A stretch of 41,214 nucleotides of DNA, taken from the IMG/VR virus record IMGVR_UViG_3300049012_000004, positions 1-41,214 of that record; one strand, written 5' to 3'. The stretch is from a virus (taxonomy: Duplodnaviria > Caudoviricetes). Below the pieces are notes generated by a model. The model did not search any database, was not told the DNA's origin, and was given only the letters and a program-made list of their open reading frames with translations. Of the stretch, positions 21,427 through 35,366 are shown piece by piece (position 1 is the stretch's first letter; each line of letters starts with the position of its first letter). Made by a program: the position numbers and the translations under genes.

Positions 21427-22623
21427 ATGAGTTTCGTCTACATTGAGGGTTTCGACAACTTCGCTGTCAACCAAGACTTACGCGATGAGGGCTGGCAAAG
21501 CACTCGAAGTGATGGTGCAATTCTAGGAAGCACGCTGACGTTTTACTCAGGTAGACTGAACGAGCGTAGCTTCGGTAAGAACACTGCAAGTACAAACACT
21601 GATGGATTCGGCAGGTTAATCCCTGCTGCCATTGAGCGAAACCTGCACATGGGTTTTGGTTTTAAGGATGCGGGACAGCGTGAGAATTCTTCTTGGTCCT
21701 CGTCTTCTGAGGTGGTATCGAACATTGTGACTGCGATGACTACAGCCAGTAACGGTTCCCTGAAGCCAATCCTTGTTGTTACCTACCTACATCGCTCTCG
21801 AAGATTCGCCATCACAAGCAACACAAACACAAACATCACTAACCCCGGAAGTACCTCTGTCAGTCAAAGGACATTCTATTCGGATGCTCCTGACTGGTTT
21901 GACCCCACGGTTTGGAACTATCTTGAACTCATTGTGACAAACAACGGTAACGAAGCATACCTATTCTGTAACGGTGAGGCGGTGGCGAGTAACATCGACA
22001 CGGGAATTGTTTATGGCTCAGGAGGATTCACATTCTTCTACTTCATCGACTTCCCGAACAGGGTCCAGTGGAGTTACCCAATCCACGGACCTATTGGTAA
22101 CGGTGAGTTTACAGGGAACGCTGTCGGTGTAGGGGGTCCCAGACCACGATATGATGACGTGTTCATCAAACAGTCAACCGTACTTGCACAACCTTTAGGG
22201 GACTTTAGGATTAACGATGGTCCTGCAACAGCAGACTTCTCTGTTGAGTTTACCCCAACGGTTGGTTCACTGGATAACTTCTCGAACCTTGATGAACTTA
22301 CAGCCGATGGTGACATCACTGTGGTATCTTCGGACACTCCCACAAAGACAGACCTATATTCACACTCTGTGGTTCTTTCACCTGTTGTTGTTCCGAATAC
22401 CGTGACGGTAAAGACACGGGTCGTGGCAAAGAACGCTGTGATTGCCCCTGTGGTATTCGCTGGGGTTATCTCGGACGGTCTTGTTACAATCGAAGGTGGT
22501 GTATATCCGATAGGAACAACCTATGGATACCATTCCTTAACCTACAACACAGATGCCAATGGTGTTCCATGGACAAAGCTGAGTGCTGAGTCAACACTAT
22601 TTGGATTCATCCACAAACCATAG
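21427..22623 (+). CDS. Putative receptor-binding protein 1 (LamG/ConA-like beta-sandwich)
   Basis: YIEGFD, WNYLEL, YDDVFI, PLGDFRI; lies in the tail module; paralogous to the next gene. Confidence 0.7.
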   Translation: MSFVYIEGFDNFAVNQDLRDEGWQSTRSDGAILGSTLTFYSGRLNERSFGKNTASTNTDGFGRLIPAAIERNLHMGFGFKDAGQRENSSWSSSSEVVSNIVTAMTTASNGSLKPILVVTYLHRSRRFAITSNTNTNITNPGSTSVSQRTFYSDAPDWFDPTVWNYLELIVTNNGNEAYLFCNGEAVASNIDTGIVYGSGGFTFFYFIDFPNRVQWSYPIHGPIGNGEFTGNAVGVGGPRPRYDDVFIKQSTVLAQPLGDFRINDGPATADFSVEFTPTVGSLDNFSNLDELTADGDITVVSSDTPTKTDLYSHSVVLSPVVVPNTVTVKTRVVAKNAVIAPVVFAGVISDGLVTIEGGVYPIGTTYGYHSLTYNTDANGVPWTKLSAESTLFGFIHKP

Positions 22624-22631
22624 GAGTTTTT

Positions 22632-23687
22632 ATGTCAATTACTTTCATTGATGGCTTCTCCACTTATGGGACCACGGAGAAACTCTACCAGAACGGGTGG
22701 GTTCCAACAGGTTCCAGCCCCACTACCTTCACTACAGGTCGGTTTGCAGGTTCCTCTGCTGCCAGTTTTGATGGTATTCAGCGTGGACTACGCCGCAGCT
22801 TTGGTCAAGGTGCAGTGACTGAGTTCTGTATTGGGTTTGCCCACCGGGTTAATTCTTCAGATTCAAACTCAATTAGGGTTCTAAACCTGTTCGGCCAAAC
22901 AATTCCCCGGTACATCCTGCGGATATTACCAGAGGGTGTTCTTGAAGTACTGTACAACAACAACCTGTCCAGCAGTCAGATTACTTTGGAAACCCTGAGT
23001 TTGGGCCAAGGCTCAACTGTGGTAAACACTGTAGGTGCTTGGAACTACATCGAGTTCCGTGTGTTCGACAACACGAGTTTCCAAGTGTTTGTGAACGGTA
23101 CCCTAGACTTTGGAGGTACCCTACCTGACTCCGTTAGCCTGTTCTCCTACGGCTTTGGATACGACCCCGTATTCCAAAACAACGGTGGACAACGAAGCCG
23201 TGTTACAGACCTCTATGTTAAAGTGGCGGGTGGTATCTACAATACTGACACATTACCTCTGGGCGACTGTCGGGTTGACGTTAAGGTTCCTGAAGAGGAT
23301 GTGACAACCCAATTCGTTCCGTCTTCCGGGACAACCAACTACGAGAACGTTGATGAGCGGGAGCAGGATGGTGATGCAACGTTTGTCAGTGCTGCAAACA
23401 CTGGTGAGTTCGATGCTTACCGCTCTACTACCCCACTACCGTACAATCCCCAAAAGATTCATGCGGTTCAAGTCGGTGTTGTAGCCCGGAAGTCCGATGC
23501 AGGTCTTCGCCGCGCGGGTATTCGTGTACAATCCGCTGGTGGTACGGTGGTTACCTTCCCCGGAACATCACTGGGTATCGAATACCAGAGAACCAACGAG
23601 GTTCTTGAGGTTGACCCAGATGGTAACATCGAATGGTCAAAGCCTAAAGTTGATTCCTTAATCTTCGGCCCACGTATCGAGGTGTAA
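22632..23687 (+). CDS. Putative receptor-binding protein 2 (paralog of 21427-22623)
   Basis: FIDGFS, WNYIEF, VTDLYV, PLGDCRV; AGGAG RBS. Confidence 0.7.
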   Translation: MSITFIDGFSTYGTTEKLYQNGWVPTGSSPTTFTTGRFAGSSAASFDGIQRGLRRSFGQGAVTEFCIGFAHRVNSSDSNSIRVLNLFGQTIPRYILRILPEGVLEVLYNNNLSSSQITLETLSLGQGSTVVNTVGAWNYIEFRVFDNTSFQVFVNGTLDFGGTLPDSVSLFSYGFGYDPVFQNNGGQRSRVTDLYVKVAGGIYNTDTLPLGDCRVDVKVPEEDVTTQFVPSSGTTNYENVDEREQDGDATFVSAANTGEFDAYRSTTPLPYNPQKIHAVQVGVVARKSDAGLRRAGIRVQSAGGTVVTFPGTSLGIEYQRTNEVLEVDPDGNIEWSKPKVDSLIFGPRIEV

Positions 23688-24502: not shown

Positions 24503-26197
24503 ATGACTCCACAACAGCAGGAATACGCACGGATGTTGAAAGACTTCCGGGTGTTTATCTTTCTGGTATGGCGCAGTTTAAACCTGCCCAAACCAACCCG
24601 TATGCAAAACGACATTGCACTCTACCTTCAGCATGGTCCAAAGCGTTCAATCATTGAGGCTTTCCGTGGTGTTGGTAAATCATGGCTCACAGCGGCCTTT
24701 GTCGTGTGGCTGTTGCTTCGCAATCCCCAGTTGAAGATTATGGTAGTGTCGGCCTCCAAGGACCGCTCAGATGCCTTCTCAACGTTTGTGAAGCGAATCA
24801 TTAACGAACTCCCTATTTGTGAACACCTGAGGACCAAGCCGGGTCAACGGGACTCCATGATTAGCTTTGATGTTGGCCCAGCCACTCCTGACCAGTCACC
24901 TTCGGTTAAGTCCGTGGGTATCACCGGGCAGCTTACTGGTTCTCGTGCTGATATTATCATTGCCGATGACGTGGAAGTTCTGAACAACTCCGCTACTCAG
25001 GCCATGCGTGACAAGCTCAGTGAACTGGTAAAGGAATTCGATGCGATTCTGAAACCGCTGGACACCTCAAGGATTATCTACTTGGGTACCCCGCAGTGTG
25101 AAATGTCCCTGTACAACGCCTTGCCAGAACGTGGCTACGAAGTACGGGTATGGCCTGCTCAGTATCCCACCGCCAATAAGGTGGCAAACTACAAGGGACG
25201 ACTGGCCCCCATCATTACCCATGACATGGAGAATGGTGCAAACGCTGGTGACCCTACAGACCCTGTACGATTCACCCACGAGGACTTGATGGAACGCCGG
25301 GTCTCCTATGGAGCCGCAGGCTTTGCCATGCAGTTCATGCTGGATACAACCCTGAGCGATACCGAGAAGTACCCATTGAAGCTGAAGGACCTGATTGTAC
25401 AGTCCTTGGCACTCGACAGGGGACCCTTGAAGTTGGCTTGGGCTGCTGACAAGGACTTGGCCCATACCGACCTTGAAGCCATGGGGCTTACTGGTGACCG
25501 TTTCTATTCCCCCTTCTGGGTTGACCGGGAGAACATGAAGGAATGGGAAGGTACCGTATTAGCCATTGACCCGAGCGGTAGAGGCTCCGATGAGACCGGG
25601 TATGCCGTAGTATCCCAGCTTGGTGGTTATCTCTTCCTGAGGGCTTCTGGTGGCCTCCGTGGGGGTTATACACCTGAGAACCTTGAGACTCTGGCAAACA
25701 TCGCCAAGAACTACAAGGCCAAGCAGGTAATCATTGAGGCCAACTTCGGTGATGGTATGTATTCAGAACTCATCAAACCTGTACTGGGAAGAATATATCC
25801 CTGCTCAGTTGAAGAGGTGAAACACCACACCCAGAAGGAACGCCGCATCATTGACACGCTGGAACCAGTACTGTCAACCCATAGGCTGGTTGTCGATAAG
25901 GCAGTCATTGAGAAGGACTACAAGGACACCATGGTAGACCCATGCTATTCCCTGTTCTATCAGATGACCCGTATCACCGCTGACCGTGGGGCATTGAAGC
26001 ATGATGACCGATTGGATGCCTTGGCTATTGCTGTTGCGTACTGGTCAGAAGCCATGGCCCGTGATAACGACAAAGCTCTGGAATCCCACAAGGCTAAACT
26101 GCTGGATGCAGAACTGAGGAAGTTCAAGTCTCAAGTAGTGGGTGCCAAGAAGCAATCCTCTGGTGGTTGGTTCAAAGGTAACCGAGGGTTCAGATAA
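24503..26197 (+). CDS. Terminase large subunit (gp19-like)
   Basis: IEAFRGVGKSW, GQLTGSRADIIIADDVE, YLGTPQ, IDPSGRGSDETGY, HDDRLDALA. Confidence 0.98.
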   Translation: MTPQQQEYARMLKDFRVFIFLVWRSLNLPKPTRMQNDIALYLQHGPKRSIIEAFRGVGKSWLTAAFVVWLLLRNPQLKIMVVSASKDRSDAFSTFVKRIINELPICEHLRTKPGQRDSMISFDVGPATPDQSPSVKSVGITGQLTGSRADIIIADDVEVLNNSATQAMRDKLSELVKEFDAILKPLDTSRIIYLGTPQCEMSLYNALPERGYEVRVWPAQYPTANKVANYKGRLAPIITHDMENGANAGDPTDPVRFTHEDLMERRVSYGAAGFAMQFMLDTTLSDTEKYPLKLKDLIVQSLALDRGPLKLAWAADKDLAHTDLEAMGLTGDRFYSPFWVDRENMKEWEGTVLAIDPSGRGSDETGYAVVSQLGGYLFLRASGGLRGGYTPENLETLANIAKNYKAKQVIIEANFGDGMYSELIKPVLGRIYPCSVEEVKHHTQKERRIIDTLEPVLSTHRLVVDKAVIEKDYKDTMVDPCYSLFYQMTRITADRGALKHDDRLDALAIAVAYWSEAMARDNDKALESHKAKLLDAELRKFKSQVVGAKKQSSGGWFKGNRGFR

Positions 26198-26206
26198 AGG
26201 TAGACG

Positions 26207-26225
26207 GTGAGGTATGATACTTGGT
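26207..26225 (+). promoter_or_regulatory. Putative phage RNAP promoter at the right end (phiOR equivalent)
   Basis: GTGAGGTATGATACTTGGT, consensus copy with no credible ORF downstream. Confidence 0.8.
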
Positions 26226-26543
26226 AGTATAAAGCTACTGGGGGCACGCTTCATCGTCTAGCGATGGGGTCCACGATACAGACCGTTTGTTGTCTGGTAG
26301 TGGCTCAGGGGAACTTCATTGCTGGACTAATGTGGATAACACACTAGGACCCAATAAGAAACCTGTGGGAACCTACTCACCTGAACTGGTAACCTACGTG
26401 TATCTCCCTTTGATGGGAATGATTGTAAGCTGAACAACCTTGAGTAACACTACTCTGGGTCTAGTAGCCTTCCCTTCAGATAGACTATTGGGGTAACCAC
26501 TGGGGGGTAGGGGGGCACCTCATAGGTTTCTTATTGCGTCCTA
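26223..26543 (+). ncRNA. Candidate structured non-coding RNA (or ssDNA hairpin element)
   Basis: 25-position stem 26345-26369/26519-26543, two further nested helices, three 5' hairpins, and a 15-bp cross pairing 26296-26310/26438-26454. Confidence 0.55.
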
Positions 26544-26635
26544 ATATAGAGTAACCTTGTAAGGTCTCTTTAAGATACCCTATAAGAGTAATGACCATCA
26601 TAGATATAAACTATCCATGACCTATCCTGTAGACA

Positions 26636-27064
26636 ACCCTCAAGGTAATCCACAAGATGATTCAGCTAGGTACCCCTTAGGGGGTGACCGCTCAGTGGAC
26701 TGTAGGTACCTTCTGGTGACTCCCATGGGGTATCCCGTAGGGAGGAATGTTTATAGTGAAAAATGTGAGAGAGTAATCGACAAGATCGGGACAGTTCAAA
26801 CCCCCCTTGCCACCCCTGCTCTACCCACAGGACACCCCACAAGTTCCCCCACAAGGGTAACGCGCAGGCGTGCACGGGTATACGATAGGGGAATCCTATG
26901 GGTAATCAAGGGGTTATCATAGGGATTGACTATAGGGGAGACTCAAGGGGATAGTCAGGGGCTATGTCCTAGGCTATCTGTTCCCCTCAAGATACACCAC
27001 AAGATGTAGTACTGGATACCACCGCCACCACAACCTATAGTGTACCCTCAAGACAATCCACAAG
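26636..27064. repeat. Short-repeat region likely flanking the physical termini (T7 SRR/SRL-like)
   Basis: Repeated CC(A/T)CAAG heptamers near 26639, 26650, 26837, 26849, 26985, 26997, 27046 and 27058, plus ~12-nt-period GGG(G) repeats at 26885-26963; lies between terL and the early promoters. Confidence 0.65.
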
Positions 27065-27091: not shown

Positions 27092-27120
27092 TTGACAAGG
27101 TGCCCGGAAGTGTGCACAAT
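27092..27120 (+). promoter_or_regulatory. Host sigma70 promoter A1
   Basis: TTGACA-N17-CACAAT with an upstream T-tract. Confidence 0.8.
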
Positions 27121-27433: not shown

Positions 27434-27462
27434 TTGACAAAATGGAAAACACCGTGTAGAAT
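27434..27462 (+). promoter_or_regulatory. Host sigma70 promoter A2
   Basis: TTGACA-N17-TAGAAT with an upstream T-tract. Confidence 0.88.
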
Positions 27463-27641: not shown

Positions 27642-27669
27642 TTGACAAACCGGATTAAACGTGTATAAT
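27642..27669 (+). promoter_or_regulatory. Host sigma70 promoter A3
   Basis: TTGACA-N16-TATAAT. Confidence 0.85.
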
Positions 27670-35249: not shown

Positions 35250-35366
35250 GAGATACTCTTATAGATTATCTTATAGGTACACCTTATAGTTTTCTTTCTT
35301 ATAGAGTATATATTAAAGATAATACCTATAAGAAAGAACATTAAGATAATCATTAAGTAACCATAA
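35250..35366. other. Putative replication origin (AT-rich repeats)
   Basis: CTTATAG at 35258, 35270, 35283 and 35298; perfect 13-bp inverted repeat 35292-35304/35326-35338; ATTAAG repeats; directly behind a phage promoter, as for the T7 primary origin. Confidence 0.65.

What the first reader, a model, noticed from the sequence alone, without database searches (positions are those of the whole stretch)
26207..26543. Phage-promoter-driven ~320-nt ORF-free element with a long rod and a 15-bp cross pairing (candidate novel structured ncRNA)
Seen: a consensus phage promoter (26207-26225) fires into DNA with no credible ORF. The first 90 nt form three hairpins: GGTAGT/GCTACT, CTTCATCGT/GCGATGGGG, and CCAC..CAGAC/GTCTG..GTGG. 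Next, 26345-26369 pairs with 26519-26543 (22 Watson-Crick, 2 G-U, 1 mismatch). This is extended by 26372-26381/26502-26511 and 26387-26395/26491-26499 into a ~200-nt rod capped by small hairpins. Separately, 26296-26310 (GGTAGTGGCTCAGGG) can pair with 26438-26454 (CCTTGAGTAACACTACT) over 15 bp with a 2-nt bulge. That pairing crosses the rod, so it is either a pseudoknot or an alternative conformer. The wobble pairs are G-U on the + strand, which favours a single-stranded + polarity molecule. Known: T7 uses right-end transcription and a DNA hairpin near the right end for terminal-repeat duplication and packaging. Inference: this element is more elaborate than one hairpin and could be a packaging-linked RNA, a 6S-like polymerase decoy or a switch.
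Basis: partly seen in the sequence, partly recalled or inferred. Interest (0 to 1): 0.85.

Follow-up and report, generated by a model that had tools for sequence, protein, structure and literature searches.

The report
Switching RNA beside phage genome end
Behind the last promoter before its genome end, this T7-like phage and a group of distant relatives carry a conserved non-coding sequence, absent from the Rfam library, that is predicted to fold into an RNA with two alternative shapes and a G-rich tract, and that likely helps start DNA copying at the genome end much as primer RNAs do in mitochondria and ColE1 plasmids.

Summary
The element is real. It starts at a phage promoter (8 copies in the genome) that is the counterpart of T7 phiOR, about 550 nt left of the inferred terminal repeat. 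As + strand RNA it folds at z -5.4. It is more conserved than terL or its flanks (320/321 and 300/321 nt in two relatives), and variants show compensatory changes. About 18 distinct elements of the same layout lie behind the same promoter in Gyeongsanvirus-like and uncultured phages: a 5' hairpin, a G5 run, a two-state middle domain, and a rod holding G6-TA-G6. One variant keeps both mutually exclusive pairings of strand 26261-26269. Rfam has no match. The T7 M-hairpin counterpart is separate (26591-26601). The best inference is a cis-acting pre-primer/R-loop RNA with a CSB II-like G tract; this is untested. Against it: the tract is paired in the final fold, some members interrupt it, sister lineages lack the element, profile models do not link the window to the distant groups, and no discrete transcript was shown.

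The parts
24503..26197 (+). Terminase large subunit gene (upstream context)
   Evidence: PHROG 38, E 8.7e-123
26207..26224 (+). Phage RNA polymerase promoter, counterpart of T7 phiOR; start site inferred at G26223
   Evidence: 8 copies vs 0.07 expected; last promoter before the inferred terminal repeat, as for phiOR
26223..26239 (+). Hairpin 1 (P0), from +1
   Evidence: In all prefix folds; T26239C turns G-U into G-C in L001/L002; equivalent hairpin covaries in group A
26240..26244 (+). G5 run, a G4-5 run at this place in every group A, B and window-type member examined
26248..26270 (+). Hairpin 2, early conformer (state 1)
   Evidence: In prefix folds of 50-95 nt, lost in full-length fold; T26254C+A26264G in run X22
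26256..26327 (+). Alternative 15-bp helix 26256-26270/26313-26327 (state 2), exclusive with hairpin 2
   Evidence: Full-length minimum, 8.2 kcal/mol below state 1; A26264G+T26319C in X22
26271..26303 (+). Hairpin 3
   Evidence: C26274T+G26300A and C26279T+G26296A in X22
26296..26454 (+).
26345..26543 (+). Long rod with a 25-bp base helix
   Evidence: z -6.3; conservation ends at 26556/7 in three relatives' contigs
26372..26382 (+). Pyrimidine arm that pairs with the G tract
26405..26418 (+). Small hairpin in the rod interior
   Evidence: C26406T+G26417A in L317, X19, X20, X22, X23
26502..26515 (+). G6-TA-G6 tract, CSB II-like; the only G5+/N1-7/G5+ motif in the genome on either strand
   Evidence: shared by most family members
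26591..26601 (.). Small palindrome, counterpart of the T7 M site (not part of the RNA fold)
   Evidence: 185 nt left of the inferred repeat; 195 in T7, 190 in LUZ100
26776..26975 (.). Inferred direct terminal repeat (about 200 bp), with a C6-N3-C-rich tract at 26801-26816
   Evidence: 17 nt after the AAAAA motif, the offset seen in T7 and in the annotated vRsoP-WF2 repeat; right edge inferred from the ATCTGTT site
26976..26982 (+). ATCTGTT, T7-type concatemer-junction pause motif (motif meaning recalled)
   Evidence: only + strand copy in the window

Best explanation
This conserved non-coding element directly behind the phage's right-end promoter is predicted to fold as the 5' part of the transcript that runs toward the terminal repeat, and it likely acts in cis as a pre-primer RNA whose folding path would decide whether its G-rich tract anchors an RNA-DNA hybrid that starts DNA synthesis across the repeat. 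Shown from sequence: the promoter, the position left of the M-like site and the repeat, conservation above terL, covarying helices, two exclusive pairings kept in one variant, and a G6-TA-G6 tract. Inferred steps: (1) phage RNA polymerase starts at G26223; (2) local hairpins form first and refold into long helices at about 105 nt; (3) while the pyrimidine arm is held elsewhere, the emerging G tract re-pairs with the C-rich template or forms a hybrid G-quadruplex with the non-template strand, as at mitochondrial CSB II and the ColE1 G-rich stretch; (4) the stalled or processed RNA primes rightward synthesis, or opens the DNA at the M-like site 75 nt downstream, for terminal-repeat duplication or right-end replication; (5) if the rod closes over the tract instead, the polymerase reads on to the ATCTGTT pause linked to packaging.
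For: Position matches T7 phiOR. The element travels with the promoter even when a gene is inserted after terL (L223, L228, L237). The G side of the tract stays purine while its partners alternate C and U, so the G-rich identity is kept beyond what pairing needs. CSB II is GGGGGAGGGGGGG, stops T7 RNA polymerase and primes mtDNA (PMC4176368; PMC6317783). ColE1 uses a long folded RNA and a G-rich stretch for R-loop priming (PMC5043065). Two-state fold: triple change 26254/26264/26319; both states pair with varied letters in groups A and B; early helices are lost in the full-length fold in 16 of 17 members. In 12 of 17 members the G5 run pairs with the pyrimidine arm before the tract is made (no control). 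T7 has an AT-rich stretch at this place instead, which fits an alternative way to open DNA.
Against: The tract is paired in the predicted final fold, which would compete with R-loop formation. BOESR1 and L304 interrupt the tract with A. The G5/pyrimidine-arm pairing is absent in the window itself (P 0.02), and G5 is not predicted to be exposed. The bistability test is weak: 15 of 16 above the control mean, only 1 of 16 at p<=0.05, and absolute alternative energies equal the controls'. The distal pairing is poor in L246 and in the window for strand Z and not evident in L502. Sister lineages L384, L242, L244, L255 and L318 lack the full element. Models R1 and R2 do not detect the window's element. 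RNA-library contigs run past both ends, so no discrete RNA or stop site is shown.
Confidence: 0.4

Rival explanations
1. The folded nascent RNA is a packaging signal: held by the polymerase paused at the concatemer junction, it helps recruit or activate terminase.
For: Lies on the transcript that would reach ATCTGTT at 26976; T7 packaging depends on this transcription (recalled from Chung and Hinkle 1990, titles only seen). A C-N3-C double tract complementary to the G tract sits inside the repeat in 20 of 22 element-bearing phages vs 35 of 121 others.
Against: That correlation is confounded by kinship, two of the 121 'others' carry the element, and element-less sisters keep the C tracts. The middle domain differs between groups whose terminases are 61-68% identical to the window's.
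Confidence: 0.2
2. It is a free small RNA, released by processing or termination near 26545, that acts in trans (decoy for a host or defence protein).
For: Sharp conserved boundaries at 26203 and 26556/7; own promoter, 5' hairpin from +1 and a long closing helix; present in two freshwater RNA libraries of one study.
Against: No U tract or terminator found after the rod; RNA-library contigs continue past it and may be DNA; fixed position at the genome end in every member.
Confidence: 0.15
3. It works as single-stranded DNA (displaced + strand) only, an enlarged M-hairpin analogue.
For: Close to the terminal repeat; as DNA the + strand folds somewhat better than the - strand (-49.4 vs -44.0).
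Against: A separate M-like palindrome exists at 26591-26601; structure starts exactly at the inferred +1; many G-U pairs (273 of 1716), weak as DNA.
Confidence: 0.08
4. It is a self-cleaving ribozyme that makes a defined RNA end.
For: Group A can be drawn with an HDV-like nested pseudoknot and invariant loop letters (sequences).
Against: L439 lacks the needed P1 pairing; no canonical P3/L3 or J4/2; no Rfam ribozyme match; group B and the window lack the motif.
Confidence: 0.07
5. It is the mRNA of a small protein like T7 gene 19.5 (frame 26287-26433).
For: A 48-aa frame at the place of the 49-aa gene 19.5; it stays open with the same stop in L317.
Against: TTG start without a clear ribosome-binding site; 1-nt deletion at 26338 in X22; no PHROG match; conservation extends well outside the frame.
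Confidence: 0.05

Closest known systems
T7 phiOR transcript and right-end region (phiOR, gene 19.5, M site, short repeats, terminal repeat, CJ pause)
   Same: Same promoter position after terL, M-like palindrome about 190 nt left of the repeat, AAAAA..C-tract boundary motif, ATCTGTT site.
   Different: T7 has an AT-rich stretch and gene 19.5 after phiOR and no G5-N-G5 tract; here a 320-nt covarying fold fills that place.
Mitochondrial CSB II / LSP R-loop (human OriH)
   Same: Phage-type single-subunit polymerase, promoter 120-280 nt upstream of a split G tract; CSB II stops T7 RNA polymerase too (PMC4176368).
   Different: The tract here is paired with a conserved pyrimidine arm inside a long rod and preceded by a two-state domain; termination and priming untested; no U-rich tail directly after the tract.
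ColE1 RNA II pre-primer
   Same: Long non-coding folded transcript with alternative structures and G-rich stretches upstream of a DNA-synthesis start (PMC5043065, PMC6317783).
   Different: No sequence or Rfam similarity; made by a phage polymerase; no antisense RNA I promoter found (no phage promoter on the - strand); shorter (200-320 nt vs about 550).
phi29 packaging RNA (recalled)
   Same: Phage-encoded structured RNA near a genome end.
   Different: No Rfam match; different packaging motor; no evidence for a free RNA.

Membership tests
Any Rfam 15 family | Match at gathering score | tested here: not met
   0 matches in the window and 4 cultured relatives; only chance-level or unrelated hits in E-value mode on the region and 20 further loci
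T7 phiOR-type right-end promoter | Phage promoter after terL pointing at the terminal repeat | tested here: met
T7 M hairpin | Short palindrome about 190 bp left of the terminal repeat | tested here: not met
   The element ends 233 nt left of the repeat; a separate palindrome at -185 fits instead
CSB II-type R-loop origin | Split G tract on the non-template strand downstream of a promoter of a T7-type polymerase | tested here: met
   26502-26515, unique in the genome; compare PMC4176368
CSB II-type R-loop origin | Tract invariant as G runs in all members | tested here: not met
   A-interrupted in BOESR1 and L304
CSB II-type R-loop origin | K+-dependent termination, hybrid G-quadruplex, RNA-to-DNA transition | not testable with these tools
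   needs in vitro transcription and primer mapping
ColE1 RNA II | Folded pre-primer with alternative conformers | tested here: inconclusive
   covariation supports two states; thermodynamic test weak
ColE1 RNA II | Antisense RNA I control | tested here: not met
   no phage promoter on the - strand at up to 4 mismatches; no sigma-70-like - strand site inside the element
ColE1 RNA II | Persistent hybrid cut by RNase H to give a primer | not testable with these tools
   bench test
HDV-like ribozymes | Nested double pseudoknot with P1, P1.1, P3/L3 and catalytic C in J4/2 | tested here: not met
   inspection of group A: P1 absent in L439, no canonical L3; no Rfam match; consensus features recalled
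6S RNA | Rod with central bubble matching the 6S model | tested here: not met
   no Rfam match
tRNA/tmRNA | ARAGORN detection | tested here: not met
   0 genes

The most novel reading that the evidence does not exclude
A clade of T7-like phages uses a folding RNA switch at the genome end to choose between priming DNA synthesis (open G tract, R-loop) and reading through to the packaging pause (closed rod): a phage counterpart of the mitochondrial CSB II origin run by the same polymerase family, coupling terminal-repeat duplication to packaging.
Probability: 0.25. Interest if true: 0.9.

Novelty: new variant of a known kind. Interest (0 to 1): 0.7.

Why it matters
How T7-like phages duplicate their terminal repeat and couple it to transcription and packaging has rested on the T7 M-hairpin model (recalled). 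A covarying RNA element at exactly this place, present in cultured phages and with a CSB II-like tract, gives defined mutations to test whether the right-end transcript itself primes or opens DNA. It would also link phage right-end origins to the mitochondrial R-loop origin, which uses a T7-type polymerase. Even without that mechanism it is an RNA family missing from Rfam 15 and from my ten paper searches.

Tried and rejected
blastn of the region against cultured phages gave only 30-nt chance hits; blastn and nhmmer against the first 92 loci found only L001/L002 and their duplicates. Group A, group C and the L220-type element have no cultured match. Rfam, ARAGORN and terminator scans were negative. 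Covariance models: R1 found only group A (L090 at E 0.55); R2 had only 5 base pairs from a poor alignment and found only group B (L244 at E 0.16); neither hit the window. HDV-like reading of group A rejected (see rivals). The idea that G5 is exposed in the finished RNA was not supported (that script stopped early at group C). The terL tree is the quick tree only; the window's lineage is about 1.0 changes per site from group B and not placed with starred support, and L247 was labelled 'no' although it carries a displaced element. RNA runs were contigs only, so start, end, strand and level could not be read; X9 and X21 are probably DNA. None of 15 outgroup records (T7, P413, phiA014S, RLP, UAB_Phi78, AltoGao, PMK34 and others) has a G5-N-G5 tract after terL; some may lack their genome end, and family member BOESR1 also fails that pattern. 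The last pattern scan gave 1 new member among 36 loci (L502). The LUZ100 paper had no passage on this region. The supplements of PMC10690425 showed no hit, but files 1, 2 and 4 were not searched and may list this motif. Five look-ups of earlier findings gave nothing relevant.

Full report
Setting. The window is a complete, circularly permuted T7-like phage genome (127-nt end overlap; complete record) with RNA polymerase, DNA polymerase, capsid and terminase genes. Its closest cultured terminase relatives are Gyeongsanvirus phages of Ralstonia and Bordetella and Limnohabitans phage YIMV22061, at 61-67% identity. The promoter at 26207 is one of 8 matches (0.07 expected) and is the last one before the genome end. 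The terminal repeat is inferred at 26776 to about 26975. It starts 17 nt after an AAAAA motif, the offset seen in T7 and in the annotated repeat of vRsoP-WF2, and ends at the only + strand ATCTGTT (its role as the junction pause is recalled). A small palindrome at 26591-26601 lies 185 nt left of the repeat, like the T7 (195) and LUZ100 (190) palindromes. The promoter is therefore the phiOR counterpart, and the M-hairpin counterpart is outside the element.

Observation. The pairings are as described. The element folds at z -5.37 on the + strand and -3.83 on the - strand. This is among the strongest folds of the genome but not unique; the rod carries the signal (z -6.3) and the first 200 nt alone score -1.6.

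Conservation in close relatives. L001 keeps 320 of 321 nt, against 550/600 in terL and 210/233 just downstream. L317 keeps 300/321, against 529/600, 156/233 and 144/199 in the repeat. Contigs from four runs extend this; similarity of the X22 and X23 contigs stops at 26556/7, and that of the longer X22 contig starts at 26203. That contig (depth 6.3; 23 of its 25 substitutions listed) has six double changes that keep pairs: 26254/26264, 26264/26319, 26274/26300, 26279/26296, 26332/26342 and 26406/26417. It also turns the C-C mismatch 26351/26537 into A-U and has three one-sided G-U changes. Some changes in other variants break a pair (26346 in L317 and X20).

Switch. Strand 26261-26269 pairs with 26249-26257 in transcripts of 50-95 nt and with 26313-26322 from about 105 nt on; state 2 is 8.2 kcal/mol more stable. 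X22 changes all three partners together, so both exclusive helices are kept. This rests on one contig. L317 offers the same 5' strand a shifted partner of equal strength, so a loose long-range contact is not excluded.

Family. Of 201 distinct terL-downstream stretches, 20 had a G5-N1-7-G5 motif within 600 nt; 13 of these are family members, 4 form a looser marine group C, and 3 lie in the repeat region. Pattern scans and record look-ups added L439, L449, L223/L228/L237, L464 (BOESR1) and L502. In all there are 6 distinct group A members, about 11 of group B and L086. The layout is the same: promoter, hairpin from +1, G4-5 run, middle domain, rod with a pyrimidine 5' arm and a G6-N2-7-G6 3' arm. 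All 22 sequences folded had z between -2.9 and -9.7 and a lower energy on the + strand. Group A consensus: 91% of cells paired, 15 of 60 pairs with double changes, 0 of 500 shuffles as high (relatedness inflates this control). Group B hairpin: 50 of 50 cells paired, 10 double changes. In group A both states pair in all 6 members with varied letters; in group B the distal pairing holds in 5 of 7, partly in L449 and poorly in L246. A thermodynamic test of bistability was weak (15 of 16 above control mean, 1 at p<=0.05). Homology of the window type to groups A and B rests on position, layout and short shared motifs, because neither covariance model detects it. Several sister lineages have lost or reduced the element, and 15 outgroup records lack the tract.

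Mechanism. The G tract is the only one of its kind in the genome. Its partners alternate between C and U while the tract stays purine, which suggests a second role beyond pairing. It resembles CSB II, which stops mitochondrial and T7 polymerases through a hybrid G-quadruplex (PMC4176368, passages) and anchors the R-loop that primes mtDNA, in a way likened to ColE1 (PMC6317783, passages; PMC5043065, passages). The pairing of an upstream rG run with a template dC run in ColE1 is recalled, not read. I therefore infer a cis-acting pre-primer whose folding path opens or closes the tract (confidence 0.4). In 12 of 17 members G5 holds the pyrimidine arm before the tract appears, but not in the window, and without a control. 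Against the model: the tract is paired in the final fold, two members interrupt it with A, and nothing shows a stall or a primer. Rivals are a packaging scaffold (0.2), a free small RNA (0.15), a DNA-only structure (0.08), a ribozyme (0.07) and a small-protein mRNA (0.05).

Novelty. No Rfam 15 match. Ten paper searches (listings) showed no description. Passages of PMC8703784, PMC10134795, PMC10914365, PMC13236587 and PMC4925675 do not mention it. PMC10690425 (passages; 6 supplementary files searched, 3 not) could hold it unnamed. The library lacks most subscription papers, including the 1990 T7 packaging series, which I cite from recall. Verdict: a real, apparently undescribed family of structured elements in a known setting, mechanism inferred. 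Interest 0.7.

Noticed in passing
L100-L172: Of 31 long ORFs covering an exact G6-TA-G6 in unrelated viral contigs (31 of 68 listed; 30 with the C run on the coding strand), 19 match replication-initiator or primosomal PHROGs. The tract lies mid-gene, where lambdoid origins are (recalled), but it also encodes a proline motif.
   Followed up: partly
L220:982-1151, L221, L227, L229, L235: AT-rich contigs without a T7-type terL hold a conserved intergenic look-alike of group B (small G-rich hairpin, then a pyrimidine arm closing over a G7-AAA-G7 tract), beside a divergent CxxC-containing gene. No Rfam or cultured-phage match.
   Followed up: partly
L286, L279, L277, L316 after terL; L430: Marine group C: 5' hairpin and a G6-TTT-G6 hairpin flanked by two similar ~19-nt direct repeats; a similar unit occurs in L430 outside a terL context.
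   Followed up: partly
L415, L419: G6-TA-G6 lies in the intergenic stretch upstream of terminase-like genes (judged by eye from the translation) on the opposite strand in unrelated phages.
   Followed up: no
window 35254-35357: Strong AT-rich inverted repeat just before the RNA polymerase gene, behind a phage promoter at 35221 (z -6.4); part of it is complementary to 26568-26590. Possibly an RNase III site or left-side origin.
   Followed up: no
window 27092-27120, 27434-27462, 27642-27669: Three strong sigma-70 early promoters right of the terminal repeat, like T7 A1-A3.
   Followed up: no
window 26801-26816: C6-N3-C-rich tract inside the repeat, complementary to the G tract; double C run in 20 of 22 element-bearing phages, none with the local G-run partner that T7 has (confounded by kinship).
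   Followed up: partly
L223, L228, L233, L237: A lone gene of about 140-155 aa is inserted between terL and the promoter-plus-element unit; L086 and L088 have insertions between the element and the repeat.
   Followed up: no
L464:284-2716: BOESR1 terL is annotated in two parts around a homing endonuclease gene.
   Followed up: no
window 21427-23687: Two adjacent tail-region genes both match the unknown family phrog_2448.
   Followed up: no
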